Of a stretch of DNA of 34,060 nucleotides, positions 1 to 27,577 are shown piece by piece. The position numbers were made by a program, and so were the translations under genes. The stretch's first letter is position 1; every line of letters starts with the position of its first letter. The notes under the pieces are model-generated. The model worked only from the letters and a program-made list of their open reading frames with translations, was not told where the DNA came from and did no database searches. Source of the DNA: Nemertoderma westbladi (lineage: Eukaryota; Animalia; Xenacoelomorpha); NCBI GenBank assembly GCA_032718475.1, contig JAUCBJ010005620.1:1-34060 (forward strand), read 5' to 3'.

Positions 1-160
1 ATTATCCAAATAGCGATATTTCCATCAACAAATATTTACAATTAATAACTGACGGTAAAATAACAGTACAAACAATATGATTAATGAGTTAGGTAACAGT
101 TTATACTTTCGATAATTCAAGCAGTTTACGGTACAGCAGTATCTATCCAAAAAATGCCGG
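1..160. repeat. Diverged direct repeat, copy 1 (copy 2 at ~1774-1930)
   Basis: ATTATCCAAAT..CGATATT(T)CCATCAACA..TACAATTAATAAC.GAC.GTAAA.....AACAGTT.ATAC.TTC...TAAT shared with 1774 onward. Confidence 0.75.
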
Positions 161-1773
161 TGTTTCTGGCTTAGACAGCAATAACAACAAAGTATCAAGA
201 AAAAACAGTAAGACTGAACACTCTCCTTATGATCGGCAGAAAAGCTACACGTCGACAGGAAAAACCGCCCTGATTGGTCCAAGCCAAACAAAGAACCACG
301 CGGCCAATGGCTGTTTCCATGTCAGCAACCAGCTGCTAGATGTCGTAATATGAATCATCACGGCTAAGCTGTGAAAGGTGGTTGGTGCATTACAAGTTTT
401 TTGTCTTACCATGTCCGCTAAAACACGTATATAGCAGAATTACTTTTATGTCCGTTAAAACACCTGTAAAGGTACCTTGCGGGCGAGGGGAATATATATA
501 CAGTTAGAAAACCCTTTTAGAGTATTCCAGCGCCTGGGGGGGAACTGGCCAGCATAGGCAAACGTATCAGTTATCCCACAAAAGCTTTTACAACTATCAA
601 GCCTAAACAAACTACGGTATATGCAGACTCCGAAATGGTTAGTTAGTATGCGTTCTAACCGAGTAGGACGACTTATTCTTTCGAAGAGGTTTACCTCACA
701 GCACTGGAAGCCCCTACGTTCCCAACTGGCACTTTATCGGACATACACTCCACACACACCGCAATCTCTTCAGACCCAACAACAGCCAGACAACAGTCCA
801 GCCTACAAATTATCTGTACAATCTGAGCAGGCTTACACGTCTTCTGCTCAATATTAACCTACAAATAAATAAAACCTGACAGAAATAAGTAAACCATGCA
901 AAGGAATAAGGGGTGATCAATCCCTAATCCCCCAACAGCCTACAATATACAATATATCACAATCGAAATAATACTGATGTACCTATACTGCTGTAAGTAC
1001 CGGTTCCGGTGGTTAGGTAGTTAGGCCTACAGGTTACCGGTCGACCGGTACTTCAGCTTTATTGCTTACTGCAATAAAGAAGCAATAACTGTTACTGTTC
1101 TTACCAGAACAATAGTAAACTGTATTTATTGCCTACACTGCAATCAGAGTTCATAACTGTTATTGTTCGCGCTTTTAGACCTTAGGCAGTTTAACCCGCC
1201 TAATTTAGGTGTCTTTTAGTTTGTAAATCGACTTTAGCCTACGACGAGTATTTGATACACTACATTAGCCGAAGCCAGCCTATGCGCGATCATTCACCCG
1301 CTGGATATACCCGGGAGACTGGATTCGGGGGCTCTGACCTTATTGCGGTGTAGGCCTACTGTATTATTCGATTGATCGTTAATATATAATCTCTGACAAT
1401 ATTATTCACTTTCGGGAAATATTAACAGTTCCTTTAGGACGTGGCGCTCTAAATATATAAACAGAGCTATGACTTACACTAAACACAACGGGATGGCTTA
1501 TGATTCACGTATAAGGCGCATTCTTTAGGAGATGCTTTGTTATCTGTCCCAATCATGCACACTACCGGTACCGCACAATACTGCACACTGATCTGCCGAC
1601 CTTTACTAATTTTAGTCACATATAAAGAGAATAGCAATTGACCCATGTAGTGCCTATGAAATAGCATTAGATTCACTCCAAAACCAATATCATATAAGTC
1701 GCAATTGCTATATGTAACCGGTCTCTTACCTTCAGTATATCAAGAAGATGGGGTTTTATAATTATTTATCGAT

Positions 1774-1930
1774 ATTATCCAAATATAACGATATTCCATC
1801 AACAGATACAATTAATAACCGACAGTAAATAGCAGTAAAATAATGCGGTGTGTATATAATGCAGTTGACAGGCAGGATAACAGTTATACGTTCCGGTAAT
1901 CAAAGCCGTTCTAATGTTTTGGCTAAAGTC
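1774..1930. repeat. Diverged direct repeat, copy 2
   Basis: Aligns by eye to 1-160 with indels; both copies are followed by CTGATTGGTC (CCAAT-type) motifs. Confidence 0.75.
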
Positions 1931-2318
1931 TGAAACAGAATAATTCCATAGCTGATGTTCATGGCATCAGGAAAACCAACACACTGAAACCTGTGGGCCG
2001 TTGTAGGCAGCTTTCAACACAAAGAGAAATAGCTCTCATTGGCAGAACTCCAGATTCTATGGGTTCCACGAACGTCTAAATGCCAAACCTCCCTAGCCTT
2101 TGCAGCCCATAGCCAACACAAGGCTAAATCGCTCTGATTGGTCGATCATTGTTCTGATTGGTTAATCGAACAGAACAAAGAGGCCATACGTACAGCAAAT
2201 CGGCCAATCAGCCAGCAGAATGCATCACTCGAGCAAGGCAGTTTTAGAGTATTTGAGCGCATTGAGGGAAACTGGATTGCGGAGAAAAAGGGCCAGTTAC
2301 ATCCCGCAAAAGCTTTTA

Positions 2319-2517
2319 CAGCCAGTAAGGAAGCTGCAGGGGTTAGTTTTTAAACGGGATCCCGATCAGTCAGTCAGTAAGGAAGCTGCAGGGGTTAGTG
2401 TTTAAACGGGATCCCGATCAGTCAGCCAGTAAGGAAGCTGCAGGGGTTAGTGTTTAAACGGGATCCCGATCAGTCAGCCAATAAGGAGCTGCAGGGGTTA
2501 GTGTTTAAACGGGATCA
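2319..2517 (+). repeat. ~4 tandem copies of a 52-bp unit spanning the MITE left end and its flank
   Basis: CAGTAAGGAAGCTGCAGGGGTTAGTGTTTAAACGGGATCCCGATCAGT; TIR starts at 2344, 2396, 2448, 2499. Confidence 0.9.
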
Positions 2518-3330
2518 CGGTGAAAAATGCAATCCCGGTCCCGATCTATTTTGGAACGGGATCCCGATGTACAAATAAATAGCTAAATAAATTTCTTGAA
2601 TATCCGATGGTTATTTGAGCCAGAACAGAACAGAATTGACTATATTGAATTGTCGGATTGATGGCTGTCCCTAATCCATCCAGTAATTAACTGTAAATAA
2701 ATTATAATATAACTTTATCTCACTAATATTTCAGCAGTTTGAAATAAAGTGGTAGAATTTTGCCAAAACCTCATTACATACTAACACAGCAATACTGAAA
2801 ACTTTCAGATATTTTTATTCAAAATTGTAATCCCAGGCCAGATCCCGGAAATCCCGAAAAGTCTGATCCGGGATCCCGTTTAACCCTTTGCTGCATAGTG
2901 TTGCACTGGTGCAACACTAACATTTCCTGTTCTTATTTCTCCTAAGTAGGAAAACAGCCAATGAGGATCAAGCAGTGAGAAAGAGGGTATATTAAGCTTT
3001 CATTTGATTGGTCACTTGACATATTTAGTCCAGCTGGTAACTAAGTGATGTAATTCAAATATTGTATATCCTTAATTGTAAATTTCCTGAATTTCAACAA
3101 ATTTATCTTCCTGTAGAAAGTTACATAGACAGTCTGGGGGTCTGAAAAAATTCATAATAATAATAAAATATGTATTTTTTCATAAAATAACCTTATCTTT
3201 CCATATAATATCTGTTAGAGGCGTACAGACCTGAAAAACTGACCGTTGCACAAATGCAACATCATGCAGGAAGGTACAAATTTTGTTCGGCGAATTGTTC
3301 AGAAATTTCGGTCGATTTTATACATTTAGG

Positions 3331-3602
3331 GTGCCCATGTGAAGAATACCAGGATTTCACTTTTCGGTCGACTTTTTATTGGAATTTTATATATGAAGAT
3401 TTTTTATTTTTTTTAATTTAACTTTATTAAGTGTTTTATAGCGCTTATTTCTGTCTTATAACATGTACTAATTCGTTTATTGTTTTGGTTAGATTAAGCC
3501 CTTCTGTAACCTGGGTTTTTGGTGAAACCTGGTATTCTTCACATGGGGGTAAATGCAATGTGAAATATAACGGCAGAAAGTCTGGTATTCTTCACATGGG
3601 CC
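3331..3602. mobile_element. MITE with 8-bp TSD (Merlin-like by GG terminus and TSD length; family uncertain)
   Basis: TIR G(T)GCCCATGTGAAGAATACCAG / CTGGTATTCTTCACATGGGCC; CATTTAGG at 3323-3330 and 3603-3610; extra internal TIR copy ~3528-3548. Confidence 0.8.
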
Positions 3603-4395
3603 CATTTAGGTCAATTATACAGTACAGGCCACCAGAAAAAGCAGATTTCATAATATGTGATCACAAGTGAACACATCTGATCAAGTCAACTGATTGGCAC
3701 TAATTCAATATCGAGTTATCTTCTAGAGCCCACAGCAGAAGGTTGACATGCTGGGACCGACAAAAGCGTTGTGTGCGGTGCGCCTGTATGTCTGATATCA
3801 GGTAGATGAGAGAGCCCCCAGGGAGTAACATTGCGGACATGGGCTGTATTGGTAGAGAGAGAACTACATACAAGACCACATGGAGGTTCATGGACTGTAT
3901 GGGAGTGGATGGGTATATGGATTGAGGAGCCTAGACCATTGAATAATTAATTTAGTGCAGGGGATGTCGCGCCATTAGTCTGACACCGAGAGGGTACAGA
4001 GAAAGACCAGAAGATGCCTTATCACTAACTATAGGCCTATTAGACACTATTAAACATACACTATAAAGGTAAACATAATGCAGCTGCAATGCTGCAGTGA
4101 GTGACAGTTCGCGGCAAACTACAGAGAGTTTCCAGATTACTAAGCGTTTCAAAAGTATTCAAATGTATTCTTTGACGAAAAAATTTTGGTTGTTGGCAAT
4201 TCCAATATGTTCAATTGTCCCGTTCAACAACATTACATTAACTGGTACACATTTGATCAAATGTGTTCACATTCGAACAAATCTGCGTTTTCTGGTGGCC
4301 TGTACGCTGTAATGTAGAGTTAAATTTGGGTATCTACTGTATGTCTATTACATCTAAGATATGGCTTCCTCGGAATTGACTTTCAATTTCAATAA

Positions 4396-4418
4396 GGGGG
4401 GGGGGGGGGGGGGGGGGG
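4396..4418 (+). repeat. Poly(G) tract (23 G)
   Basis: Direct read. Confidence 0.9.
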
Positions 4419-4439
4419 TAGCGCTAAATCAATATTTTT

Positions 4440-5050
4440 TTGCAATTTTTTTTATTTCATCTAAAGCATAATTTTATTAAAATTCCAAATTTGAAAACCG
4501 TTTAGCAAGATCTGTCTTACTTCTCGAGATATGGCTGCCTGTCCGTTTTACTGTTGGTTTTGTCCGTCAGTATGTCTGTTCGTCAATAAAAAACACACTA
4601 TCTTTCTAAAAAATTCCCTGTAAGGGTTTTCGTGGTCGGTGACTTCATTTCTGATGTCATAAATCAAATTTGGCCCTGTCGGTTCTGTCTGTAAGCCTGT
4701 CAGTCTGTCTGTCAAAATATTACCGACAGTCTGACAGTCAAACAGACAATTTGGAAGTCATCAAATGTTAAAATTGACACTCGAAATGAATTCTGCGACC
4801 AGGGAACTTCTATAGCTAAACTTTTAGCTAAATGGTGTGCCTTTTTATTATATTTGACAGGCAGATAGTCGAATAGACTGAAAGACCGACAGACAGACAT
4901 ATTTACACACTAGATTTCATTAAAAGTGAAAACTGACCTCAGTAATGAAATCAGCAACCAGGAAAACCCCCACAGCAAAAATCTTATCATGGTTTTGTGC
5001 TTTCTTGTTACTAGATATAGACAGACATTCATTCGCTTATTATTATGATA
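4440..5050. mobile_element. Possible Helitron/Helentron-like non-autonomous repeat inside the piggyBac-like element
   Basis: Degenerate (TGTC)n/(GACA)n blocks; inverted pair GGGTTTTCGTGGTCGGTGACTTCATT (~4624) / AATGAAATCAGCAACCAGGAAAACCC (~4944); family call by resemblance only. Confidence 0.3.
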
Positions 5051-5969
5051 ATTAAAACTTACTTACTTACTGAAAAGTAAAGACGTGACACTGAAAATAG
5101 TGAAAGATAAGAAGTGGTACTTGAAAAGTAAAAACTATTTCTTAGATTTCCACAAAAAAATAGAAAACTCGTGCAATGCAATATTTATCCAATAATAGGC
5201 AGGCCTATGCAAATATTAGAATAAAATAATGCATTCTAAATTCATAAAATTAACATTTATTTTTCTAATATAGAACCCTTATGAATCGTATAACGCGGGA
5301 AACAATGTGTCGCACAACAATTACTATTGGATATATTTTCAAAATTTGGTGCCGGGCACCAAATTTTCCACCCACCACCGAAAAATACAAGTTTGAGATT
5401 TCTAGTGTCATTTTTATTAATTTCATTACTTTCAGAATCGCCATAAACCAGTATAACGCAATATGTTAAACAATATGAAACAATATGTTACAATCAATTC
5501 ATATATTGCATCTATTGGTGCTGGCACCAAATTTTCGACCTACCGCTGACATATAGAAGTTTGAGATGTCTCATGCCATTTATATATATTCCATGGAATT
5601 CATAACCCTCATAAAACCATACAACACAAGAATCAAGAAAACAATCATCTTAACAATTCGCCAAATATTATGTATATTTCTATCCCCTTTATGCATGATG
5701 TTGCACTAGTGCAACAGTGGTGCAAAAAGTGCCAGTATATTTTTAAAAAAATTTTCCAATTTTTAGTTTTTTTACACCCAAAAATGACTGTGAAAAACAC
5801 CAAAATAATTTTTTTCTATGGAGCATCAAAAATTCATGCAGTAAAGGGTTAAACACGACCGCGGGTGACGTATAACATCGGTATATTATATACCGGGATA
5901 TAAAGTATTTATGTGAACTTTATTTACGTTTATTATAACTAAGTCCTACACTAATAATTATAGAGAGTT

Positions 5970-5975
5970 TTTATT
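5970..5975 (-). terminator. Candidate EMC4 poly(A) signal
   Basis: AATAAA on the minus strand about 157 nt after the EMC4 stop. Confidence 0.55.
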
Positions 5976-6131
5976 CAAAACGGAAAATATAACGACAACG
6001 TTTTGTGAAAGTCTCTAGTGAAATATTATAATATTAGATGAGTTTGAAACTGAAAGTAATTGAACCATAGGGTCGGGTAGAGCTATTGTTTCACATTGGG
6101 ATGAGTTGAGCAACATAAAAAAAGTAATAAA

Positions 6132-6692
6132 CTAAAAGGAGAAGCCACCACCGGAGAACTCAACCTGTGTCTGTGGGTCTACAAAGGCCAACCAATCGGA
6201 GGCGTGGGTAGGCAGGAGACCCATAGACTGGCACTTATACAGCGCCAAACCGAGACCCAAAGCGTTGCCTAGGAGATACACGAACTTCTGTACCAAGGCG
6301 TGGGAGGATCCCTCGAGCATCTTACAGGTCCCGCGGAACCCGAGGATCGCCTGCACCGGCTTGAAGAACATCATCCCGACCATCATTATAGGGAAGATCC
6401 CGATGATGTTACCGGACATGTACATAAGGAACATATTCATAGGGAGCTGCTTCAACGGGCCCACAGCGATGTCCCACGAGCGTTTATCGACCAACGAGTT
6501 GTCCGACTGGTGGCTGAGGCCTTCCGGGAGTTGGCGGTCCGTGTAGCCCGGGGGGTTGTTCGTGACGTCACATCCGGTCTGGGACGCCGCCAGCAGCGCC
6601 TTGTACTGGTCGTTGTTTGAGCCGCGGGTGGTCAGATCGATGGACCATTTGTGGCGCTTTAGTGTTTGTCGCGCGGTCGTTGTTTGAGACAT
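6132..6692 (-). CDS. EMC4: ER membrane protein complex subunit 4 (intronless, 186 aa from ATG 6692)
   Basis: KWSIDL...NPPGY...LVDKRSWDIAVGPLKQLPMNMFLMYMSGN..IFPIMMVGM...ALYKCQSMGLLPTHASDWLAFVDP..VEFSGGG are EMC4/TMEM85 motifs; the ORF-track extension to 6830 starts at a non-ATG codon and is not homologous. Confidence 0.96.
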   Translation of the reverse strand: MSQTTTARQTLKRHKWSIDLTTRGSNNDQYKALLAASQTGCDVTNNPPGYTDRQLPEGLSHQSDNSLVDKRSWDIAVGPLKQLPMNMFLMYMSGNIIGIFPIMMVGMMFFKPVQAILGFRGTCKMLEGSSHALVQKFVYLLGNALGLGLALYKCQSMGLLPTHASDWLAFVDPQTQVEFSGGGFSF

Positions 6693-6891
6693 TCCGACAG
6701 TCGGTGAATAAAATTCGACAGCGGATATGAAAGTGACGAAGTTGGGTAGGTAGGTACCGATACCGGTAGGCCTACGTATCAGAGTATACCGGTATAGCAG
6801 TACAGACCAGCAGACAGATAGAGAAAGCAATTATTAAACACCAAACCAAGTCAATTTAACGCGAACAATTTTTATACTACCGGTAGAAGAA

Positions 6892-6925
6892 CTGTAGAAG
6901 TTGAGGAGATAAATAAGTAAAAGAC
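6892..6925 (-). promoter_or_regulatory. U-rich tract plus 3' splice acceptor (candidate trans-splice site) upstream of EMC4
   Basis: Minus strand ...tcttttacttatttatctcctcaacttctacAG directly after the ANAPC13 AATAAA; a second AG-exclusion zone ends at AG 6772-6771. Confidence 0.45.
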
Positions 6926-6927
6926 CG

Positions 6928-6933
6928 TTTATT
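6928..6933 (-). terminator. Candidate ANAPC13 poly(A) signal
   Basis: AATAAA about 38 nt after the ANAPC13 stop, followed by a U-rich tract. Confidence 0.6.
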
Positions 6934-6970
6934 TAAACTGATACACTGGTGACTCGTCGTGACTCGCTGT

Positions 6971-7189
6971 TTATCTCAACTCCATATGCCGGAAGGCCAT
7001 GTCGAGCCACTTGGCCTCCAGTTGTTTCAATGTTTCGGTACTGGGTCCGTTATCGTGGTCCGTTTCGGGTAGTTCGTTAGCAGGAATCCCAATGTCGTCT
7101 CCGTCGTTAGGGAGTTGTTCGGAACGCCAGGCTGCGTCGATTAAATCGATTCGTCGACCGTCCAGTAAATGGTGCACCGAGCTATCCAT
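6971..7189 (-). CDS. ANAPC13: Anaphase-promoting complex subunit 13 (intronless, 72 aa from ATG 7189)
   Basis: MDSSV..DGRRIDLIDAAWRSEQLP..DIGIPANELPETDHDNG..TETLKQLEAKWLDMA matches Apc13 (MDSEV.DGR..DLIDDAWR...LP...IP..ELPE...DNG...E.KW.D.AL). Confidence 0.9.
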   Translation of the reverse strand: MDSSVHHLLDGRRIDLIDAAWRSEQLPNDGDDIGIPANELPETDHDNGPSTETLKQLEAKWLDMAFRHMELR

Positions 7190-7200
7190 GCACAGCAAAA

Positions 7201-7210
7201 CTGTAAATAT
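7201..7210 (-). promoter_or_regulatory. 3' splice acceptor 11 nt upstream of the ANAPC13 ATG (candidate trans-splice site)
   Basis: Minus strand gatatttacAG|TTTTGCTGTGCATG. Confidence 0.45.
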
Positions 7211-7349
7211 CCGTTCGCTATTTGGGCACGGTCTGCAGTATGGTTGGCGTCTTGTCGGTAGCAGTGAGTCTAGCCTCCTACCGGTCTGCTTGTCGCTTGT
7301 AGGTATAATAGTTACACAGTCTGACAGTTACAGTGATCTGATAGGCCTA

Positions 7350-7565
7350 TTACAGCACCAATATACTAATCGCCATTGCAATACAACACAGGGCAATGTA
7401 GGGACTCAATCGTTCGCCGATTCTAGCGCACTTCCAAAAAGTTCCAACGAAGCCGGTTTTATTTTTATCCAAGAGACTCGGCATAAACGCATGAATATAA
7501 GTGCAGGTGCAGATAATCAACAAAACCACGGTTAGCAATCCTTGGAAGTTGAAGATCGCAGACAT
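7350..7565 (-). CDS. TMEM167A: Protein kish / TMEM167 (intronless, 71 aa)
   Basis: [23 protein letters not shown]...[35 protein letters not shown] matches the kish-A family end to end. Confidence 0.95.
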
Positions 7566-7989
7566 TTAATTCAATACAGCAATAGGCAGATAGGCTGATA
7601 GGCATAAACTAAACCAACTTTAGTACCGGTATTCTGGTCTTTATTTAAGTCGAGGCCCTTACAGCCTTATCCCTGTATCCAGTTATCAACCTTTTGAGAA
7701 TTTTACATGCAGACACGATGTACCCGTATTACTAAACCAGTGCAATTCTACAGCAATGTAGGCCTAAATAATGAATAAATTGGGAGCGGGGATCAAGTGG
7801 AATTTTTGAAGCTTTACATGAAAAAATATATAAATCATTATTATTAAATGATTTAAGATGATAATCTAATGAATACGTAAACGCGAACAAAGGAATTAAA
7901 TGGAAATTTTTTAACGGCATTGAAATGTTATAATATTTAAATTTAAGTACCCTTTTGTTTTAAATCACCAAGTCGAACGAACGACGAAC

Positions 7990-8470
7990 GAACTACTTGT
8001 CTTCAGCTTCAATGCACAAAGTATTGTGAACAAGTTGCCAGAATTTAAAGCACGTATTTTACTTGACAAACCACATGTTGTTGCTATTAGTGAATCTTGG
8101 GGTCGTCCAACAATTGATATTTCTACCCTACATGTAGAAGGCTACTGTACAATATATGCCCCAATGATCGTGGTAATGATATAACAGGGGGAGGGGTGTA
8201 CTATACATTCAGCATTCTCCTCTGTATGCTTGAAGAATATTACCGACCTTCCGCAACCTGTTTCTAGTTACGAAGAATCGACATGTGCCCTTCTCCGCTT
8301 TCACAATGATTCACAATGTTTCACAATGTCGCCATTCAATGGCGACACTATCTGTGTACAGGTCACCCAATAGTTCTGACAACAATAATGCAAAGCTAAT
8401 GGATTTCATTTTACATGTCAAGAATATTGCCAATGACTGTTTGATTCTCGGGGATTTTAACCTACCTAAG
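7990..8470 (+). pseudogene. Degenerate LINE apurinic endonuclease fragment (CR1-like)
   Basis: FNAQSIVNKL..PHVVAISESW (~8008-8100) and VYRSPNS...CLILGDFNLP (~8355-8466), broken by frameshifts. Confidence 0.8.
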
Positions 8471-8718
8471 AGCTCTAACCTTAGAGCTCTTAACCTAAGA
8501 GCTTTAGTCTTTACAAGACTGAAGTGTATTTGCACTTCGACCCTTCTCCAGTGTTCACCGCCTTATTGTGGCAAATGTAATACTTAGTCTGCGTGCTAGC
8601 AGAACAATGAAATCTGCCTTGCCGCGGCATGACTGGTCCTCTTTGTTTCAACAGCCCAGTTAGTTGTGAGATCCAGCTTTACACTACAGCTGAGCCTCAG
8701 GTATGAGGTTTTCGCTTC

Positions 8719-10342
8719 TAAAGGCCATGATACACCACAGGAGCGGCGTGCGGCAGCGGCGAGCGGCCACTTTTTAAAAATAGAACACATTATTATCTAT
8801 GGGTGATGATACACCACAAATGGCCCCTGCAGCTCGCCGCTGCAACCCACTGCCCTTTTAGAACTTGCTCTATTTTTTGAGCGGCGAGCGTCGGCGGTGA
8901 GCGGCTTCTGTGTTTTTCACAAATGAAAAATATTGGATCTGATCACATGAAAAAGGAAAGACTGGGGGAATTTCGTGATTTTTTTACTCTGTACTTGTAC
9001 AAACAACTGCAGAGACGTTATAATTTATATGCAATTAGGCACTACTGTAGCGTGTGTTTTTAGCAAAACTTTCTATTTGTACTACCTAATTGCAAATAAT
9101 GGTCGGGGTGGGGTGTCGGGCATGGCGATCATATGATCTTGGGGTAAATGAAAAATGTACTCCTTGGGATATATTTAGTTGCGAGTAATGCTGTGAGGAA
9201 CGGCGCAGTTGAGAGGGAGAAATGCACATGATCCGTCCGGTGTTGAAGTCGCTAAAAATGTAAAAACTTTTAAGTCAGGGGCTTCTGCAGGCAAGAAGGT
9301 CCGGAAAGTGACGAAACAGCGCCTTGTATATATAGCCAGACATTATGATTATCGGGATCGAAGCGTCTGAATGCTGATTGGCCATCATATCTAGTCCCTA
9401 TTTGTGTCGGAGCTACTGGTTGGCTAAACAGTTACGTTTCGATCCTATTGCACATATGGGCTGGTGAGGGCTGAGGTCAATGACATAGAACGTCTCGGCG
9501 AGTAATGCCAATAACAGACTGCGCGGCATTTTACGTCGTTGTGATTCGATGTCCAGCAATGGCTAAATGAATTGGACAACTCTTTAAAATGCAGTACAGT
9601 ACTGTGCCGTTCTGGCTCTTCTGCTCAAGTAGTGTATATAATGTTCTAGAAAAACAATTGTAGAATTAATACTTTCGTAATTATTTTGCAAAGATGCCAT
9701 GGAATAATATGTTGCCATACTATCCATCACCTCAGGCATATCAACAACAATATCAACAACAATCAGAATTTACTACATATAGAGTAGTGCACAGACATCG
9801 CCAAAGACATGCAGTACATGTCCTTATAGTTCTAAGAAATAGCTACATATTGAGTATTGATGTATGATTATTTAATTAAAATGTGTAATTTACTGTATCC
9901 TGCCATGAAACTCTTCTAGGTCCACTAAAATAGTGTCGAAGTTTGTCTCTGATGTTTTGTGCAGAGTCTGAGTTGCGATTTCCCCCTTTACAAACTAAAC
10001 TCTGTAAGTTACTCTCATGCTCTAAGCCACCTGGTTCTTCGAGGGTATGGCTACTATCCGACTCGACGTTAGAAGGTATGTACGCAATAACCTTCTCACG
10101 CAGCAATTTGTGTAATACACAACAACACCTTATTATTTTTTCTGTCTTTTCTCGGCTGAGGAGTATTTTACTCTGAAATACTTGAAATCGAGCTGCCATT
10201 ATGCCGAACGCGTTTTCAGATGTTCTCCGGGCTCTGCTCAGCCTATAGTTAAATATGCGATGCTCATCAGTTAACACTAATCTGGTACTATAGGGCTTCA
10301 TAATATTTTCTTTCAACGGAAAAGCATCATCTGCAACTATTA
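8719..10342 (-). mobile_element. PIF/Harbinger transposon remnant (one terminus plus transposase C-terminal part)
   Basis: TAA then AGGCCATGATACACCAC terminus-like motif, repeated at ~8806, with GCGGCGAGCG subterminal repeats; transposase fragment below; other end replaced by the 44-bp array. Confidence 0.65.
9876..10342 (-). pseudogene. Harbinger/HARBI1-like DDE transposase, C-terminal third only
   Basis: VIVADDAFPLKENIMKPYS...RIFNYRLSRARRTSENAFGIMAARFQVF...CCVLH is the DDE_Tnp_4 signature; N-terminus absent. Confidence 0.9.
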
Positions 10343-13300
10343 CTCACCCATCCATATAAAGCAATCCCACGCAACCTATAAAGCTGTCTCACCCGCCAAA
10401 TAAAGAAATCCCAACCAACCTATAAAGCTGTCTCACCCGCCATATAAAGCAATCTCACCCGCCATATAAAGCAATCCCACCCAACCTATAAAGCTGTCTC
10501 ACCCGCCAAATAAAGAAATCCCAACCAACCTATAAAGCTGTCTCACCCGCCAAATAAAGAAATCCCAACCAACCTATAAAGCTGTCTCACCCGCCATATA
10601 AAGCAATCTCACCCGCCATATAAAGCAATCCCACCCAACCTATAAAGCTGTCTCACCCGCCAAATAAAGCAATCCCAACCAACCTATAAAGCTGTCTCAC
10701 CCGCCAAATAAAGCAATCCCACCCAACCTATAAAGCTGTCTCACCCGCCAAATAAAGCAATCCCACCCAACCTATAAAGCTGTCTCACCCGCCATATAAA
10801 GCAATCCCAACCAACCTATAAAGCTGTCTCACCCGCCAAATAAAGCAATCCCAACCAACCTATAAAGCTGTCATAAAGCTGTCTCACCCGCCATATAAAG
10901 GAATCCCACCCAACCTATAAAGCTGTCTCACCCGCCATATAAAGCAATCCCAACCAACCTATAAAGCTGTCTCACCCGCCATATAAAGCAATCCCACCCA
11001 ACCTATAAAGCTGTCTGACCCGCCGTATAAAGCAATCCCACCCAACCTATAAAGCTGTCTCACCCGCCATATAAAGCAATCCCACCCAACCTATAAAGCT
11101 GTCTCACCCGCCAAATAAAGCAATCCCAACCAACCTATAAAGCTGTCATAAAGCTGTCTCACCCGCCATATAAAGCAATCCCACCCAACCTATAAAGCTG
11201 TCTCACCCGCCATATAAAGCAATCCCACGCAACCTATAAAGCTGTCATAAAGCTGTCTCACCCGCCATATAAAGCAATCCCAAACAACCTATAAGGCTGT
11301 CTCACCCGCCAAATAAAGCAATCCCACCCAACCTATAAAGCTGTCTCACCCGCCAAATAAAGCAATCCCACCCAACCTATAAAGCTGTCATAAAGCTGTC
11401 TCACCCGCCAAATAAAGAAATCCCAACCAACCTATAAAGCTGTCTCACCCGCCATATAAAGCAATCCCACCCAACCTATAAAGCTGTCTCACCCGCCATA
11501 TAAAGCAATCCCAACCAACCTATAAAGCTGTCTCACCCTCCATATAAAGCAATCCCACCCAACCTATAAAGCTGTCTCACCCGCCAAATAAAGCAATCCC
11601 ACCCAACCTATAAAGCTGTCTCACCCGCCAAATAAAGCAATCCCACCCAACCTATAAAGCTGTCTCACCCGCCATATAAAGCAATCCCACCCAACCTATA
11701 AAGCTGTCTCACCCGCCATATAAAGCAATCCCAACCAACCTATAAAGCTGTCTCACCCGCCATATAAAGCAATCCCACCCAACCTATAAAGCTGTCTCAC
11801 CCGCCATATAAAGAAATCCCAACCAACCTATAAAGCTGTCTCACCCGCCATATAAAGCAATCCCACCCAACCTATAAAGCTGTCTCACCCGCCATATAAA
11901 GCAATCCCACCCAACCTATAAAGCTGTCTCACCCGCCATATAAAGCAATCCCACCCAACCTATAAAGCTGTCTCACCCGCCATATAAAGCAATCCCAACC
12001 AACCTATAAAGCTGTCTCACCCGCCGTATAAAGCAATCCCACCCAACCTATAAAGCTGTCTCACCCGCCATATAAAGCAATCCCACCCAACCTATAAAGC
12101 TGTCTCACCCGCCGTATAAAGCAATCCCACCCAACCTATAAAGCTGTCTCACCCGCCATATAAAGCAATCCCACCCAACCTATAAAGCTGTCTCACCCGC
12201 CATATAAAGCAATCCCAACCAACCTATAAAGCTGTCTCACCCGCCATATAAAGCAATCCCACCCAACCTATAAAGCTGTCTCACCCGCCGTATAAAGCAA
12301 TCCTACCCAACCTATAAAGCTGTCTCACCCGCCATATAAAGCAATCCCACCCAACCTATAAAGCTGTCATAAAGCTGTCTCACCCGCCATATAAAGCAAT
12401 CCCAAACAACCTATAAAGCTGTCATAAAGCAATCCCACCCAACCTATAAAGCTGTCTCACCCGCCATATAAAGCAATCCCACCCAACCTATAAAGCTGTC
12501 TCACCCGCCATATAAAGCAATCCCACCCAACCTATAAAGCTGTCTCACCCGCCATATAAAGCAATCCCAACCAACCTATAAAGCTGTCTCACCCGCCATA
12601 TAAAGCAATCCCACCCAACCTATAAAGCTGTCTCACCCGCCATATAAAGCAATCATCAAACAACCTATAAAGCTGTCTCACCCGCCAAATAAAGCAATCC
12701 CAACCAACCTATAAAGCTGTCTCACCCGCCAAATAAAGCAATCCCAACCAACCTATAAAGCTGTCTCACCCGCCACATAAAGCAATCCCAACCAACCTAT
12801 AAAGCTGTCTCACCCGCCATATAAAGCAATCCCAACCAACCTATAAAGCTGTCTCACCCGCCATATAAAGCAATCCCAACCAACCTATAAAGCTGTCTCA
12901 CCCGCCAAATAAAGCAATCCCAACCAACCTATAAAGCTGTCTCACCCGCCATATAAAGCAATCCCAACCAACCTATAAAGCTGTCTCACCCGCCAAATAA
13001 AGCAATCCCAACCAACCTATAAAGCTGTCTCACCCGCCAAATAAAGCAATCCCAACCAACCTATAAAGCTGTCTCACCCGCCATATAAAGCAATCCCAAC
13101 CAACCTATAAAGCTGTCTCACCCGCCAAATAAAGCAATCCCAACCAACCTATAAAGCTGTCTCACCCGCCAAATAAAGCAATCCCAACCAACCTATAAAG
13201 CTGTCTCACCCGCCATATAAAGCAATCCCAACCAACCTATAAAGCTGTCTCACCCGCCATATAAAGCAATCCCACCCAACCTATAAAGCTGTCTCACCCG

Positions 13301-13410: not shown

Positions 13411-13734
13411 AATGTTACTACAATAGGAAATTTGGGACAAACATTGTCCTAAAACAAAGACAAACAGTGAAACAATCCAACAAATACTTTAGGGTGTAGC
13501 TGTAGAATTAATACAGTACCGAGATATTGCATTAAGTAAATTAACTTTATTATAATTTTACTTTTATAATTTTGGTGTAGGTCAGGTTTAGGTTAGGTAC
13601 GTAAACGGAAAAAATATGTTACAGCACAAATTCAACTGAAGAATCATAACCACATAAACACCAACAATAACTTAATAATAGTCCGTAATTGCTATGATGG
13701 GCGAGTCCAATAGGGAAAAAGAGGACACCAACCC

Positions 13735-15125
13735 ACGGGATTCACTGGAGACGCGCGTTACAATGCACGACCAATCAAAGGGACTCACTGGAGACGCGTG
13801 TTACAATGCACGACCAATCAACGGGACTCACTGGAGACGCGCGTTACAATGCACGACCAATCAAAGGGACTCACTGGAGACGCGTGTTACAATGCGCGAC
13901 CAATCAAAGGGACTCACGGAGACGCGTGTTACAATGCACGACCAATCAACGGGACTCACTGGAGACGCGCGTTACAATGCACGACCAATCAACGGGACTC
14001 ACTGGAGACGCGCGTTACAATGCGCGACCAATCAACGGGACTCACTGGAGACGCGCGTTACAATGCACGACCAATCAACGGGACTCACTGGAGACGCGCG
14101 TTACAATGCACGACCAATCAACGGGACTCACTGGAGACGCGCGTTACAATTCACGACCAATCAACGGGACTCACTGGAGACGCGCGTTACAATGCACGAC
14201 CAATCAACGGGACTCACTGGAGACGCGCGTTACAATGCACGACCAATCAACGGGACTCACTGGAGACGCGCGTTACAATGCGCGACCAATCAACGGGACT
14301 CACTGGAGACGCGCGGTACAATGCGCGACCAATCAAAGGGACTCACTGGAGACGCGCGTTACAATGCACGACCAATCAACGGGACTCACTGGAGACGCGC
14401 GTTACAATGCGCGACCAATCAACGGGACTCACTGGAGACGCGCGTTACAATGCGCGACCAATCAAAGGGACTCACTGGAGACGCGTGTTACAATGCACGA
14501 CCAATCAAAGGGACTTACTGGAGACGCGCGTTACAATGCACGACCAATCAACGGGACTCACTGGAGACGCGTGTTACAATGCACGACCAATCAACGGGAC
14601 TCACTGGAGACGCGCGTTACAATGCACGACCAATCAACGGGACTCACTGGAGACGCGCGTTACAATGCACGACCAATCAACGGGACTCACTGGAGACGCG
14701 CGTTACAATGCACGACCAATCAACGGGACTCACTGGAGACGCGCGTTACAATGCACGACCAATCAACGGGACTCACTGGAGACGCGCGTTACAATGCACG
14801 ACCAATCAACGGGACTCACTGGAGACGCGCGTTACAATGCACGACCAATCAACGGGACTCACTGGAGACGCGCGTTACAATGCACGACCAATCAACGGGA
14901 CTCACTGGAGACGCGTGTTACAATGCACGACCAATCAACGGGACTCACTGGAGACGCGCGTTACAATGCACGACCAATCAACGGGACTCACTGGAGACGC
15001 GTGTTACAATGCGCGACCAATCAACGGGACTCACTGGAGACGCGCGTTACAATGCACGACCAATCAACGGGACTCAGTGGAGACGCGCGTTACAATGCAC
15101 GACCAATCAACGGGACTCACTGGAG
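13735..15125 (+). repeat. 43-bp CpG-rich minisatellite, ~32 copies, in the presumed VCP 3' UTR
   Basis: GGAGACGCGCGTTACAATGCACGACCAATCAACGGGACTCACT. Confidence 0.97.
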
Positions 15126-15420
15126 ACCAATCAACACGCTTCCCCAGAGAGCCCCGTCTCGTAGCAACCAATCAACACGCTTCCCCAGAGAGGCCCGTCT
15201 CGTAGCAACCAATCAACACGCTTCCCCAGAGAGCCCCGTCTCGTAGCAACCAATCAACACGCTTCCCCAGAGAGCCCCCGTCCCGTAGCAACCAATCAAC
15301 ACGCTTCCCCAGAGAGCCCCCGTCCCGTATCAACCAATCAACACGCTTCCCCAGAGAGCCCCGTCCCGTAGCAACCAATCAACACGCTTCCCCAGAGAGA
15401 CCAGTCCCGTATCAACCAAT
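15126..15420 (+). repeat. 41-42-bp minisatellite, ~7 copies, starting just after the VCP stop
   Basis: ACCAATCAACACGCTTCCCCAGAGAGCCCCGTCTCGTAGCA. Confidence 0.95.
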
Positions 15421-15428
15421 TAGCACGT

Positions 15429-16043: not shown

Positions 16044-18581
16044 GATTCTCCCATTCCTACTGATTTTCTTGAATTACTCGATCTAGCTCTAACTGAACTT
16101 ACTAAAAACAACTATGATGTAATTATCACAGGAGATATTAATATTAACCTTCTAAAATCAACCACTACTTCCAAATCCTATACTGACCTCATTAATTCCT
16201 ACGGTTTTATACAACTTATCAACCAACCTACACGTGTTTTTCATAATGAACTACCCGATCAGACAATACACTCTGAAACTCTTATAGATCATATACTTAC
16301 AAACATTACTAATTATACTACTACAGCCGGTACTTTTAACTCACAAATAGGCACTTCTGATCACTATGCTACATTCGTTATCCTCCAGAAGTACTCCTGT
16401 TACTTTCATCCAGCAGCTCCACACACAATATTCGATTACTCGCGTTTTAACAAGGATCAATTTCTGAGAGACGTAGCCAGTAGTAAATCTTGGTCTTATC
16501 TAACTCCAACTATAGCCGACAAGGACAAACTAGACTCTTTCTACTCCGATTTTAATTCTATCTGCGACAAACATTTACCTAAGAAATCTATTCCACCCCG
16601 TAAAAAATTATCTAAACCCTGGATGACTGATAATCTTATCAAAAGCTCCATTAATAAAAACAAATTATACAGAATTTACATTAGGAATCCTACCCCTGCT
16701 AATACTCTTGCTTACAAAACCTATAGGAATAAATTAACTTCTACTCTAAGGGCTGCCGAGAAGGCCTATTACTCTAGTGAATTCGAAACTAACTCAGGTA
16801 ACATACGCAAAACATGGATAATTATAAACTCTGCATTAAATAAAACAAAACATTTAAATACTCCAAAAAAACTAACTATCCGTACTGATAATTCTGCCAA
16901 AACCATCACCGACCCAAAGCAAATTGCTGAAGCTTTCAACCTACACTTTACTACCATAGGACCTAAACTAGCCAACGATATTCCTAAATCCAACCGCTCC
17001 CCACTACGCTTCATTAACCACACTCGCTCTAACTCATTTTCACTGGTAGAGACATCCCCTGTCGAAGTCGAATATCTAATCCTCCAATTAGACCCCAAAT
17101 CTGCATCTCATGATTGTTTCCCCATTAAACTATTACAGTTGTCTGCTAAATTACTATCTATTCATCTATCTCACCTAATTAACCTATCGATAACTCAAGG
17201 CTTCTTCCCTAAGGCTCTTAAATCGGCCAAAGTCATTCCCGTATTCAAGAGTGCCGACCCATCGGACACTAATAACTACCGACCTATTTCTCTTCTACCC
17301 GTAATAAGCAAACTGTACGAATCCATAATTAATAACCAACTACTCTCGTACCTAAAAAAATATTCCATATTGTCTAATTCTCAATTCGGCTTTCGCCCTA
17401 AATCTACAACATCCCATGCTCTGCTATCCGTTGTAGAGAATATTCACAAATACTTAGACCAAAAACTATTCACCAGTGCTATCTATATAGATCTAAAAAA
17501 GGCTTTCGACACTATTGATCACTCTATCCTAACCTCTAAGCTAAACTCCTATGGTATCCGGGGAATACCACAGCAACTACTCTCAAGCTTCCTAGATTCT
17601 AGAACCCAATTTGTTTCTATCGGTAACCACCATTCTTCTAGTTTACCTATTACATGTGGTGTCCCACAAGGCGCCACTATCTCGCCAATCCTATTCCTAT
17701 TGTATATCAACGACCTTCCTAATGCTACCTCACTAATCTCAACATTATTTGCTGACGACACAACTCTTCATATAGATAAACCTAATCTGGACTCTTTAAT
17801 CTCCATAACTAACTCTGAATTATCTAAGATTGCGGACTGGCTATCAGACAACCGTCTATCTCTCAATATATCTAAGACTGAATATGCTATATACTCTAAT
17901 TACCCTAATACTCACTCCGACCCAATACTAATTAACCATTTCCCCATTACTCGGAAACCACATTCTAAATTTCTAGGGGTTCTAGTAGATGACAACTTAA
18001 ACTGGAAATCTCACATTAAACATATTACGTCTAAAATCTCTAGAACCTCCGGAATATTCTACAAACTGCGTCACATATTTCCCCTTCGTATACTTCGCCA
18101 ACTATATTTTTCACTTGTACACCCCTATTTATTGTATGGCATTCTACTCTGGGGCAAAACCCATTCTTATACCCTACAACCCCTACGTATAAAAATAAAC
18201 ATACTCCTCCGCTGTATTACTTTCTCGCACTACCGAGCTTCTTCTAAACCTATCTATAAGTCTCTCGGCATCCTACCTATTGACCTCCTCTATAAGCACC
18301 AAGTAGGATCCCTCATGTACGATGTAAACGCTAACTTATTTAAACCTGATTCTACTCTAGGCTCATTATTCACCAAAATTTCCTCTGTACACAGATATCC
18401 AACTCGCCTTGCTACTACGGATGGTTTCTCTATTCCGAAGGTCCGCCTAACTTCCTCCAAAGCTTCCATGAATTATCAAGGCCCTTCAATTTGGAACGCA
18501 CTACCATCTCAATTAAAACACTCAAAATCAAAAAAAGCATTTTCGTCAGCGTATAAATACCACCTGTTAATGTCCCTGTAG
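15987..18581 (+). CDS. LINE ORF2: C-terminal half of APE endonuclease plus complete reverse transcriptase
   Basis: GDININL, IDHIL, SDH (APE); NYRPISLL, QFGFR, DLKKAFD, GVPQG, LFADDT, KFLGV (RT); IWNALP C-terminus; the first ~19 codons derive from the SINE and the APE N-terminus is missing. Confidence 0.9.
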   Translation: MWKITHGGEQAFLGLTSLKDSPIPTDFLELLDLALTELTKNNYDVIITGDININLLKSTTTSKSYTDLINSYGFIQLINQPTRVFHNELPDQTIHSETLIDHILTNITNYTTTAGTFNSQIGTSDHYATFVILQKYSCYFHPAAPHTIFDYSRFNKDQFLRDVASSKSWSYLTPTIADKDKLDSFYSDFNSICDKHLPKKSIPPRKKLSKPWMTDNLIKSSINKNKLYRIYIRNPTPANTLAYKTYRNKLTSTLRAAEKAYYSSEFETNSGNIRKTWIIINSALNKTKHLNTPKKLTIRTDNSAKTITDPKQIAEAFNLHFTTIGPKLANDIPKSNRSPLRFINHTRSNSFSLVETSPVEVEYLILQLDPKSASHDCFPIKLLQLSAKLLSIHLSHLINLSITQGFFPKALKSAKVIPVFKSADPSDTNNYRPISLLPVISKLYESIINNQLLSYLKKYSILSNSQFGFRPKSTTSHALLSVVENIHKYLDQKLFTSAIYIDLKKAFDTIDHSILTSKLNSYGIRGIPQQLLSSFLDSRTQFVSIGNHHSSSLPITCGVPQGATISPILFLLYINDLPNATSLISTLFADDTTLHIDKPNLDSLISITNSELSKIADWLSDNRLSLNISKTEYAIYSNYPNTHSDPILINHFPITRKPHSKFLGVLVDDNLNWKSHIKHITSKISRTSGIFYKLRHIFPLRILRQLYFSLVHPYLLYGILLWGKTHSYTLQPLRIKINILLRCITFSHYRASSKPIYKSLGILPIDLLYKHQVGSLMYDVNANLFKPDSTLGSLFTKISSVHRYPTRLATTDGFSIPKVRLTSSKASMNYQGPSIWNALPSQLKHSKSKKAFSSAYKYHLLMSL

Positions 18582-22211: not shown

Positions 22212-24334
<2,123 letters not shown>

Positions 24335-25042: not shown

Positions 25043-27560
25043 TTACACAATACCGAAGTAGTCCCTAATTCTGGTTCTTTTTTCTGTGAGACTCAATGTT
25101 CTAAGATTAAATGTTTCTTCGATAAAGCTGGCCTTGGCCATATCACCAGTCAATGCTGGTCCGTGCGAGATACGATTCGTCAGGGACTTCTTGTCATAGC
25201 GGTACATCAATAGTGACTCAAGCTGTGGAAGGGGAAAGATAGATAGCGCTCTTAAAAAAGAGTTTAGCACTCCCCGATACCGTGACCCAGAGGTTCCATC
25301 GAGACTAGCAACAGAGCAGTTAATAAACGATCCCTGTAAAGCCTTGCTGGGACAATCTATAATTCGCACCATGGTTCCCACCGCTTGTCGCATCGCTTCC
25401 ACTGATAAGCCATTGATGCTCATAAGGTGCTCCAGTGTGGCGTTGCTAACATAGCGCCCAATGTAGAGTAAGCTGCACAGATCATTTTGAAGAGGACTGG
25501 TGAGAGGAGTGATCCCTGTTTCAGGCCTCTACAAACATGGATGCCTATAGCATCTACATCACTGCCAAACTTGAGAAAATAGAGGCTTCTGGTGTAATAG
25601 TTAAGGACAGTAGCGACAATGTGAGGGTTTATTCCACACTCCAGCATTTTGCAGCCCAGAACGTTATAGTCATCATTGTCGAATGCTGACTCTATATCAA
25701 GCTGACAGAGATATACTGACTTGTCCTTCATCTGCAGATGCTCAATGCACTCTAACATCGTTGCAATGACTACATCAGACCCAAATGTGACTACGGTAGG
25801 CTGTCTGGTTCTCATGGAGATCTATGCTGCTAAGGAAGCTCTTCAGCACAACATGTTCAAAAAATTTGGCCCAAATGCTGATTGATGATATTGGGCGATA
25901 CGATTTAGGAGAGTAAACATCCCGATGCTTGCCCTTATAGAGGCTTGTCAGAACCGAATGTCCAAATATACTAGGAACTTTCTTCAGCATGAAGGGGAGG
26001 TTGAACACAATTGCTAAGATTTCACATATTGGCTCTGGATTCAAATGTAGCAAATGCTCAATAGTGAGCGAAGAGTTATCAGGGGCTTTCCCCGTAGATA
26101 GTGCTGCAATTGCTCTCTTCACTGTCAGTGAGGATATTTGTGGCACCACTGAGTTTGCACATGCCAAGTCCATGTCAGTCTGTAGTTCATCACTCAACTT
26201 GGAGGCATTGATGGAAAAGTTTCTCACATAACTATCGCGCAGCTTATCTTCCATCGAGGGAGGTATACCATTTCCGTTTGATTTATTTACCTTTGCCCAA
26301 AAGTATTTCGGATTTGAGTTGAATTTGTTGGCCCATTTACGTGTTGATTGTGCGACTGAGTTTTTAGAGAGAAAATATTTGATCCGCCTTGTACGTCGTT
26401 TTGACTCCTTGAACACTGTAGCAAGGGGGTGTTCATTGCCTTTTCCTTCTTCACTCCATAGTTGGTACAATTGTTGTGTTGTTTTCGAACTCTGGTGTAG
26501 AATTTTGGACCGAATTCTTATGTTTTTTATTCCAGTCTTTCGCTTTGCTACTGGAATATTCTGAATTGCAGCATCATGAATTGCAGACTGTATGTTCTCC
26601 ATCACACCATCGAGACTTGCAGTAGGAGGTTTTCCGCCTAGTTCATATTTTATTTTATGGATATTCTCTAATAGAAGTGTGTCAACAGCAACTTTATATC
26701 TTTCCTTTTTGGCTTCAGTTGCTTTTGCCCAGTTAAATTTCATGATTTTCCTCCTTGTGGTTGGCTTCACCTTCTGCCCTGAATGGTCATTGTTGAACAT
26801 AACCGAAAATGTCGCAATTACTGGTACGTGATCTGAGTAGTTACTACTAGGATCTTCTTCATATATGCAGCCATCTTTTATCAAAACCATGTTTAACATT
26901 GGAGTCAATATGTGGTCAATATATGACTGACCACCGTTGTGTCCATAAAACGTTGTAACTGGCCCTGTGAACTGCTTGTGAGTATCAATGGCCCTTAAAT
27001 TATTATCATTTAGAAAAGAGTTAAGAATCCGACCTCTGTATGATGGTTTCTCAGAGAGGAATCTGTTTCCCTGTAGACTACCAAGATCAGCATTGGCATC
27101 AGTGAGGGTGATGGGGATGCATGCTGAATACTGCTCCAGTAACCCATAGAGGCAGCCCAGGAACTCATCGTAGACTTCTTGAGGTTTTCCCGAATCTGGG
27201 GCATAGACTGAAAGAATTAAAAATGGCTCGTTTGAGGAGTGAAGATGAGCAATTACAATTACGCCAACAATATTATCTCCAGATTTCACTTCACTGAAAC
27301 TATTCCCTTTAACCTTCCTCATATAAATGGCTACACCACCTGCACCACGTATACGGTTAGGATTTCCCATTAAGTGGCTTACTAAATATATACAGTTGAA
27401 GTTGGCATCCAGTTGACACATTGATTCTTTGCACTCCATGTCACGAGCCAGTGTTCCTGGAGGCCTAGAAAATCACAGCTGGTTAAGAGCTCAGCAATGT
27501 ATTTAGAGTTTGCCGCAAATCCATGGGTATTAAAAGTGCACAACCGCAGCTGTTCTTCCA
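25043..27560 (-). pseudogene. Retrotransposon ORF2 (APE + RT), frameshifted, with no YADD motif found
   Basis: LCTFNTHG..LQEHWL, GGVAI, VYAP, DANA, SYIDHI, NYSDHVP; SYRPIS, LDIESAFD, GLKQGSLLSPVLF; shifts near 27440 and 25800. Confidence 0.88.
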
Positions 27561-27577
27561 AACCACATTCAGCGGTG

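What the first reader, a model, noticed from the sequence alone, without database searches (positions are those of the whole stretch)
5970..7620. Operon-like trio of intronless housekeeping genes: TMEM167(kish) - ANAPC13 - EMC4
Seen: three intact, unrelated, conserved genes lie on one strand within 1.43 kb, with CDS gaps of 160 and 278 bp and no coding introns, while neighbouring VCP has kb-scale repeat-filled introns. The spacers contain no TE or minisatellite although about a third of the window is tandem repeat. The ANAPC13-EMC4 spacer reads AATAAA, U-rich tract, then ttctacAG within ~40 nt. ANAPC13 has atttacAG 11 nt before its ATG. Known: the orthologues are unlinked and intron-containing in vertebrates, and poly(A) signal + U-rich element + acceptor is the intercistronic layout of SL trans-spliced operons (nematodes; operons also occur in tunicates, flatworms and chaetognaths). 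Inference: a polycistronic unit resolved by SL trans-splicing, possibly assembled from retrocopies.
Basis: partly seen in the sequence, partly recalled or inferred. Interest (0 to 1): 0.88.

Follow-up and report, generated by a model that had tools for sequence, protein, structure and literature searches.

The report
Three-gene intronless animal operon candidate
Three unrelated, intron-free housekeeping genes sit head-to-tail within 1.4 kb of an otherwise repeat-bloated genome of an unidentified invertebrate and are likely read as one RNA that is cut up by leader trans-splicing, an arrangement already known from sea squirts and arrow worms and untested here for lack of RNA data.

Summary
The trio is real. 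TMEM167 (7565-7350), ANAPC13 (7189-6971) and EMC4 (6692-6132) are intact and intronless on the minus strand, with gaps of 160 and 278 bp; VCP introns are 1.5-7.7 kb. The ANAPC13-EMC4 spacer has AATAAA, an AG-free pyrimidine tract and an acceptor, a layout shared by only 2 of 66 AATAAA in the window. Both spacers lack ATG (0 vs 5 expected). Corrections: spacer 1 has no poly(A) hexamer, a weak acceptor and a possible donor; the spacers are crowded with TACCGGTA/TAGGCCTA palindromes, probably transposon scars. Retrocopy origin is unsupported: no poly(A) remnant or credible target duplication, and EMC4 is also intronless in an ascidian-like contig, without these neighbours. The host is unresolved: the EMC4 tree favours tunicate kinship without excluding protostomes, and the CpG pattern resembles chaetognaths; both groups have leader-resolved operons, and Ciona operons are rich in single-exon genes. 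Best reading: an operon resolved by spliced-leader (SL) trans-splicing, with very short intercistronic spacing (about 0.62). No RNA run or genome was available, so no leader or shared promoter is shown. This scan noted similar candidates in three other genomes. New member of a known kind.

The parts
7350..7565 (-). TMEM167A/kish coding sequence, 71 aa, single exon
   Evidence: Pfam PF06842 E 2e-20; up to 80% identical to animal kish-A proteins
6971..7189 (-). ANAPC13 coding sequence, 72 aa, single exon
   Evidence: Pfam PF05839 above cut-off; 91 relatives at E<=0.001; conserved GR-D-W, LP-D, ELP and KW positions kept; Atlas first hit APC13 0.92
6132..6692 (-). EMC4 coding sequence, 186 aa, single exon; lacks the three intron positions seen in other animals
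   Evidence: Pfam PF06417 E 1e-43; introns in 4 of 9 related loci, L006-L009
7190..7349 (-). Spacer 1 (160 bp): no poly(A) hexamer, no ATG, weak donor CCG|GTAGGA at 7281, last AG before the ATG ends at 7201
7201..7208 (-). Candidate acceptor for ANAPC13 (ATTTACAG), 11 nt before the ATG; no pyrimidine tract
   Evidence: sequence; score -4.6
6693..6970 (-). Spacer 2 (278 bp): predicted ANAPC13 3' UTR, junction and 199-nt ATG-free EMC4 leader
6928..6933 (-). AATAAA, predicted ANAPC13 poly(A) signal
6892..6927 (-). AG-free U/pyrimidine-rich tract and candidate acceptor (TTCTACAG) for EMC4
   Evidence: best acceptor of all AGs in 8000-6693, score 5.0; 2 of 66 AATAAA outside tandem repeats have such a site 15-50 nt downstream
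7595..7662 (-). Upstream of TMEM167: weak donor GTAAGG at 7662, AATAAA 7645-7640, candidate acceptor ending at 7595 (29 nt before the ATG)
5970..5975 (-). AATAAA 156 nt after the EMC4 stop (two more at 5934 and 5924); predicted end of the unit
6761..7766 (.). Seven TACCGGTA/TAGGCCTA palindromes (6761, 6767, 6787, 6878, 7342, 7624, 7759), confined to non-coding parts; likely transposon excision scars or a promoter-proximal motif
   Evidence: enrichment tested; the scar reading is taken from earlier AI notes and was not tested

Best explanation
TMEM167, ANAPC13 and EMC4 are three intact single-exon housekeeping genes that are likely transcribed as one precursor and likely cut into three capped mRNAs by spliced-leader trans-splicing. 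Shown: gene identity, integrity, order, spacing and the sequence signals. Inferred: a promoter upstream of TMEM167, with about 350 bp of AT-rich DNA available before a LINE remnant. Inferred: a leader joins at the AGs ending at 7201 (ANAPC13) and 6892 (EMC4), and possibly at 7595 (TMEM167). Inferred: the ANAPC13 3' end is cut 10-30 nt after AATAAA 6933-6928, leaving only about 5-25 nt before the EMC4 acceptor, as in Oikopleura, Spadella and Ciona rather than the ~100-nt C. elegans SL2 layout. The TMEM167 3' end has no hexamer and would be made by a weak signal or by the trans-splicing cut itself, as proposed for Ciona. The unit would end at AATAAA 5975. The three proteins (secretory trafficking, APC/C, ER membrane insertion; functions recalled) share no pathway, as is usual for animal operons. 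The benefit would be a shared promoter, and selection would keep the spacers short in a repeat-expanding genome.
For: Gaps of 160 and 278 bp beside 1.5-7.7 kb introns and 34.5% tandem repeat. AATAAA, tract and acceptor at the second junction, 2 of 66. No ATG in 438 nt of spacers, against a shuffle mean of 5.0, with 5 of 2000 shuffles as low: the spacers are constrained like leaders of translated genes. No strong donor in 8000-6693; the best scores 3.4, against 6.0 and 7.4 for the two best VCP donors, and weak upstream donors typify Ciona trans-spliced genes (PMC11155486, passages). The EMC4 tree joins the window to the ascidian clade at 98/90. Genes have CpG o/e about 1.0 while one LINE in a VCP intron has 0.46-0.51, the pattern reported for the chaetognath, early-diverging nematodes and ctenophores (PMC12460157 section 9). 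In Ciona 38% of operon genes are single-exon and 60% of operons start with one (PMC2760879, passages). Intercistronic gaps are 23-30 nt in Oikopleura (PMC1488885, passages) and 3 nt in Spadella (PMC2481426, passages).
Against: No RNA evidence at all. Spacer 1 has no poly(A) hexamer, its acceptor is weak, and a donor at 7281 could pair with it as an 81-nt cis intron. Two true VCP donors score 1.6 and -2.6, so a 3.4 donor cannot be dismissed. Most of spacer 1 would be 3' UTR under this model, yet it also lacks ATG (88 of 2000 shuffles), which fits a long leader from an internal promoter. The host is not pinned down: window plus protostomes is not rejected (p-AU 0.185), the APC13 tree is unresolved, and the window keeps ancestral residues where ascidians share derived ones. 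The second LINE is not CpG-depleted (0.90). The cluster was not found in any of 9 EMC4 loci.
Confidence: 0.62

Rival explanations
1. Three independent compact genes, each with its own short promoter lying in the upstream neighbour's 3' end. The acceptors close small 5' UTR cis introns (7662-7595, 68 nt; 7281-7201, 81 nt), and the palindromes mark promoter-proximal open chromatin.
For: Plausible donor-acceptor pairs exist upstream of TMEM167 and ANAPC13. Palindromes or their ACCGGT core occur upstream of all three genes. CpG is undepleted across the trio (1.09). Both spacers are wholly ATG-free. Internal promoters occur even in Oikopleura operons (PMC6389100, passages).
Against: At the second junction only about 5-25 nt separate the predicted cleavage site from the best acceptor, which leaves no room for a promoter and an intron between them. 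Promoters would have to overlap coding sequence. VCP exons are equally CpG-undepleted (1.01), so CpG does not mark promoters here. Head-to-tail crowding is not explained.
Confidence: 0.18
2. One promoter but no trans-splicing. A shared upstream non-coding exon is cis-spliced to alternative acceptors (7595, 7201, 6892), or a stable bi- or tricistronic mRNA is read by re-initiation after the short upstream frames.
For: A donor upstream of all three acceptors exists (GTAAGG at 7662, score 1.0). The two upstream frames are short (71 and 72 codons). There is no ATG in either spacer and no poly(A) hexamer after TMEM167.
Against: TMEM167 and ANAPC13 contain 3 and 2 internal ATGs, which argues against leaky scanning. 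Re-initiation after about 70 codons is inefficient (recalled). The spacers have no unusual fold suggesting internal ribosome entry (z -0.18 and +1.03). The 7662 donor is weak. AATAAA directly before the EMC4 acceptor suggests cleavage there.
Confidence: 0.14
3. A cluster of recent retrocopies, possibly silent, with intron-containing parent genes elsewhere in the genome.
For: All three are intronless, and EMC4 lacks three intron positions seen in 4 of 9 related loci. LINE elements are present in the window.
Against: No A-rich tract follows any stop codon inside the unit (at most 7 A in 12 nt in the spacers), and the only flanking direct repeats of 8 nt or more are four AT-rich words of 8-10 nt. 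All frames are intact with conserved residues. EMC4 is intronless in an ascidian-like contig (L002-L004) and has lost the three introns in L005. Duplicated chaetognath genes show no retrotransposition burst (PMC12460157, passage).
Confidence: 0.06

Closest known systems
Ciona SL-resolved operons (Satou 2006 PMC1488885; Satou 2008 PMC2760879; passages read)
   Same: Unrelated genes head-to-tail, many single-exon (38%; 60% of first genes); 185 three-gene operons; the upstream 3' end may be made by the trans-splicing cut
   Different: Ciona cistrons abut exactly, whereas here about 5-25 nt is predicted at the second junction. Ciona has gene-body methylation and a compact genome; this host has unmethylated-looking genes and kb-scale introns. 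SL use is shown in Ciona and untested here
Chaetognath operons (Paraspadella gotoi PMC12460157; Spadella cephaloptera PMC2481426; passages and section 9 read)
   Same: Housekeeping genes, gaps under 250 bp, near-abutting poly(A) and acceptor, genes unmethylated while transposons are methylated
   Different: Chaetognath identity of the host is not shown; no passage read reports enrichment of intronless genes in these operons; the gene table that could show this trio (supplementary xlsx) could not be read
Oikopleura dioica operons (PMC1488885, PMC11067885, PMC6389100; passages read)
   Same: 23-30 nt intercistronic gaps, housekeeping bias, rapid reshuffling of operon membership, which fits the lack of conservation seen here
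   Different: O. dioica has a very compact genome with short introns; this one is repeat-expanded
C. elegans SL2-type operons (PMC7986045, passages read)
   Same: Poly(A) signal, U-rich element and acceptor in that order
   Different: Median intercistronic distance about 100 bp, against about 5-25 nt predicted here; no evidence of a specialised second leader

Membership tests
SL-resolved animal operon | Two or more same-strand genes with short gaps (under 250 bp in P. gotoi, at most 500 bp in Oikopleura annotation) | tested here: met
   CDS gaps 160 and 278 bp; mRNA gaps necessarily shorter
SL-resolved animal operon | Unpaired splice acceptor before each downstream gene | tested here: inconclusive
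   Good acceptor at 6892; weak one at 7201 with a possible donor at 7281
SL-resolved animal operon | 3'-end signal of the upstream gene close before the acceptor | tested here: inconclusive
   Met for ANAPC13 (2 of 66); no hexamer after TMEM167
SL-resolved animal operon | Non-genomic spliced leader on downstream mRNAs | not testable with these tools
   No RNA run was listed
SL-resolved animal operon | Single promoter and polycistronic precursor | not testable with these tools
   Needs CAGE, RT-PCR or long reads
SL-resolved animal operon | SL RNA gene in the genome; host in a trans-splicing lineage | tested here: inconclusive
   No genome held; no Rfam match in the window; trees and CpG point to tunicate kin or chaetognath-like hosts without settling it
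C. elegans SL2-type operon | About 100-nt intercistronic region | tested here: not met
   36 nt from the hexamer end to the first base after the AG
Ciona-type abutting operon | Poly(A) site identical to the acceptor site | not testable with these tools
   Needs mapped 3' ends; sequence allows it
Retrocopy | Loss of ancestral introns | tested here: met
   Shown for EMC4 against L006-L009; ancestral introns of TMEM167 and ANAPC13 are recalled, not tested
Retrocopy | Genomic poly(A) remnant and target-site duplication | tested here: not met
   old retrocopies lose both
Retrocopy | Intron-containing parent elsewhere in the genome | not testable with these tools
   No genome; no second copy in the window

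The most novel reading that the evidence does not exclude
The host lies outside the animal groups known to have operons, and the trio is an operon built from old retro-processed genes that needed only an acceptor to be expressed. Its spacers record repeated transposon insertion and excision, with selection tolerating only scars. It would be an island of enforced compactness in a bloated genome and may even extend upstream to VCP across 7.9 kb of repeats (an AATAAA sits 45 nt before the TMEM167 acceptor).
Probability: 0.12. Interest if true: 0.7.

Novelty: new member of a known kind. Interest (0 to 1): 0.32.

Why it matters
If confirmed, it adds one more operon of a described kind. Its use is as a clean test site: three single-exon genes with short spacers in a large, repeat-rich genome show that operons persist without genome compaction, and the scar-like palindromes offer a way to measure selection on spacer length. 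[quoted passage not shown]

Tried and rejected
Expression: no RNA holder was listed; this is no evidence either way. Whole genome: none is held. Synteny: none of 9 EMC4 loci from metagenomes carries TMEM167 or ANAPC13 by tblastn or profile search; only L002-L004 (one gene, 3.0-6.0 kb upstream held) come from a possibly related lineage, and four loci are under 5 kb. TMEM167 scans of viral and prokaryote collections gave nothing real (L010 is a weak 24-residue match). No protein among those fetched matches two of the three genes, so no fusion was seen. A fourth gene: 46 chosen frames from 1-10,400 (of 198 listed) gave only a LINE endonuclease remnant at E<0.001; the 178-aa antisense frame over the trio has no Pfam match; a possible exon at 858-694 was not recognised. 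Structured RNA: no Rfam match, spacer folds ordinary. Capture by a mobile element: no terminal inverted repeat bracketing the trio among the 25 longest of 65 pairs shown, apart from a 28-nt, 79% AT-rich match at 5808/7800. Host identity: best EMC4 identity over the full length is 56-58%; the first EMC4 tree was the quick version (88); the careful tree used 33 of 120 hits chosen for having names or for lying in the tunicate clade; window plus echinoderms and hemichordates is rejected (p-AU 0.02); APC13 trees are unresolved. Xenoturbella fits poorly (median intron 131 nt; PMC11521371, passages); Nemertoderma is not excluded (PMC10565955, passages). Literature: no paper on this trio was found by the search for TMEM167, ANAPC13, EMC4, operon, polycistronic or the search for operon, trans-splicing, spliced leader, retrotransposition, intronless; the palindrome search gave nothing relevant. 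The three readable chaetognath supplements do not name the genes; the spreadsheet with the gene and operon table was too large to read and may bear on this.

Full report
Observation. The minus strand carries three complete frames: TMEM167/kish at 7565-7350, ANAPC13 at 7189-6971 and EMC4 at 6692-6132. Pfam confirms all three above cut-off, and homologue searches show full-length, unbroken matches. The gaps are 160 and 278 bp. VCP lies upstream on the same strand, its stop 7863 bp before the TMEM167 ATG, with introns of 1522, 7712, 2016 and 6296 bp. Tandem repeats cover 34.5% of the window and none touches the trio. No fourth host gene was found in 1-10,400 among 46 frames scanned. A rough Poisson estimate puts such crowding at 0.0002-0.002; this rests on assumed mean gaps, as no genome is held.

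Junction anatomy. At ANAPC13-EMC4, AATAAA (6933-6928) is followed by 34 AG-free, pyrimidine-rich bases and the best acceptor of the whole region, ending at 6892. Only 2 of 66 AATAAA outside tandem repeats have such an acceptor 15-50 nt downstream. With cleavage 10-30 nt after the signal (rule quoted in PMC3273482, passages), about 5-25 nt would separate the two mRNAs. At TMEM167-ANAPC13 the picture is weaker: no poly(A) hexamer, an acceptor without a pyrimidine tract 11 nt before the ATG, and a weak donor at 7281 that could form an 81-nt intron. The generic matrix also scores two true VCP acceptors and one true donor below zero, so it cannot settle these sites. Upstream of TMEM167 lie another AATAAA (7645), a candidate acceptor (7595) and a weak donor (7662). 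Neither spacer contains an ATG (0 in 438 nt; shuffle mean 5.0; 5 of 2000 shuffles as low), so they look constrained like leaders of translated genes. EMC4 ends with three AATAAA at 5975, 5934 and 5924. The spacers do not fold better than shuffles, and Rfam finds nothing in the window.

An unnoticed feature. TACCGGTA and TAGGCCTA occur 7 times in the 673 non-coding bases in and just upstream of the trio, against 4 times in 12,140 other unique non-coding bases (p 3e-7; no shuffle of 2000 reached 7). Earlier AI notes from two other genomes read such TA-flanked palindromes as excision scars of TA-targeting transposons. I tested the enrichment but not that origin; a promoter-proximal motif is the alternative. 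If they are scars, the spacers were hit by transposons and kept only the footprints, which is what selection for short spacers predicts.

Intron loss and retrocopies. Four of nine related EMC4 loci (L006-L009) are split, together showing three intron positions that are absent here. But L002-L004, one gene on 6-19 kb genomic contigs that groups with Phallusia, is also intronless and has no TMEM167 or ANAPC13 nearby, and L005 lacks the same three introns. Full-length EMC4 proteins of the ascidian clade recorded on 31 kb to 2.6 Mb assembly contigs may be intronless too; I could not see their DNA. No poly(A) remnant or credible target duplication flanks the genes. Intron loss is therefore real but may be old, and assembly from retrocopies is unsupported, though not excluded.

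Host. No close relative is in the protein collection (EMC4 at most 56-58% over its length; APC13 about 55%). The careful EMC4 tree of 34 rows places the window as sister to the ascidian clade at 98/90. Grouping with protostomes is not rejected (p-AU 0.185); grouping with echinoderms and hemichordates is (0.02). APC13 is uninformative. Genes show no CpG depletion (VCP 1.01, trio 1.09; ascidian-like EMC4 0.48). One intronic LINE is depleted (0.46-0.51) and another is not (0.90). Methylated transposons with unmethylated genes are reported for the chaetognath P. gotoi, early-diverging nematodes and ctenophores (PMC12460157, section 9 read). The leading candidates, a non-ascidian tunicate or a chaetognath-like animal, both belong to groups with trans-splicing and operons, which raises the odds of an operon and lowers its novelty.

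Mechanism. Most likely (0.62) one precursor starts upstream of TMEM167 and is resolved by a spliced leader at 7201 and 6892, with near-abutting 3' and 5' ends. Gene identity, spacing and signals are shown; co-transcription, leader addition and the 3' ends are inferred. Rivals are three compact promoters with small 5' UTR introns (0.18), a single promoter with alternative cis-splicing or re-initiation (0.14), and recent retrocopies (0.06). No RNA run was listed, so none of these could be tested directly.

Comparison. About 20% of Ciona genes lie in 1,310 operons, 185 of them with three genes; 38% of operon genes are single-exon (PMC2760879, passages), and the trans-splicing cut was proposed to form upstream 3' ends (PMC1488885, passages). 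Oikopleura has 23-30 nt gaps (same paper) and reshuffles operons quickly (PMC11067885, passages). In P. gotoi 18% of genes are in operons, enriched for housekeeping functions (PMC12460157, passages); Spadella has a 3-nt gap (PMC2481426, passages). C. elegans SL2 operons have about 100 bp (PMC7986045, passages), which this locus does not match. It works like the tunicate and chaetognath kind; membership stays unproven because the defining leader was not testable. Two literature searches found no paper on this trio, and the chaetognath gene table could not be read. This scan has noted similar candidate operons in three other genomes.

Verdict. A real and well-observed cluster, probably a trans-spliced operon of a known kind, in an animal I could not name. 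Interest 0.32; 0.7 if the host proves to be outside known trans-splicing groups and the retro-assembly holds (probability about 0.12).

Noticed in passing
window 22212-24166: The 51-bp minisatellite in a VCP intron derives from the 3' end of the exon at 24312-24110 and starts inside it; the copies repeat the exon end with its AAG|GTAAG donor, giving many decoy donors that could add 17-codon units in frame.
   Followed up: partly
window 13727-15427: Tandem arrays of 41 and 43 bp begin one base after the VCP stop codon, so the VCP 3' UTR would be about 2 kb of minisatellite before the AATAAA near 13410.
   Followed up: partly
window 980-1060 and 694-858: A second cluster of ACCGGT/TAGGCCTA words ends in an acceptor-like ACTTACAG on the minus strand; an exon-like stretch with a good acceptor and donor follows at 858-694 but has no Pfam or Atlas match.
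   Followed up: partly
window 16623-18581: A 652-aa uninterrupted LINE reverse-transcriptase frame lies antisense in the last VCP intron, with no CpG depletion (0.90), possibly a young insertion.
   Followed up: no
window 25043-30177: A second, decayed LINE (endonuclease match below cut-off, upstream long frames) in a VCP intron is CpG-depleted (0.46-0.51) with TpG/CpA excess, while VCP exons are not.
   Followed up: partly
window 9876-10343 and 7924-8584: A Harbinger-type DDE nuclease fragment and a LINE endonuclease remnant lie between VCP and TMEM167.
   Followed up: no
window 7463-7458: An AATAAA lies inside the TMEM167 coding sequence, so the hexamer alone cannot be sufficient for cleavage in this unit.
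   Followed up: no
L002:5965-6501; L005:559-984: EMC4 is intronless in an ascidian-like contig, with an acceptor 22 nt before its ATG, and has lost three introns in a mollusc-like contig, suggesting repeated intron loss in this gene.
   Followed up: partly
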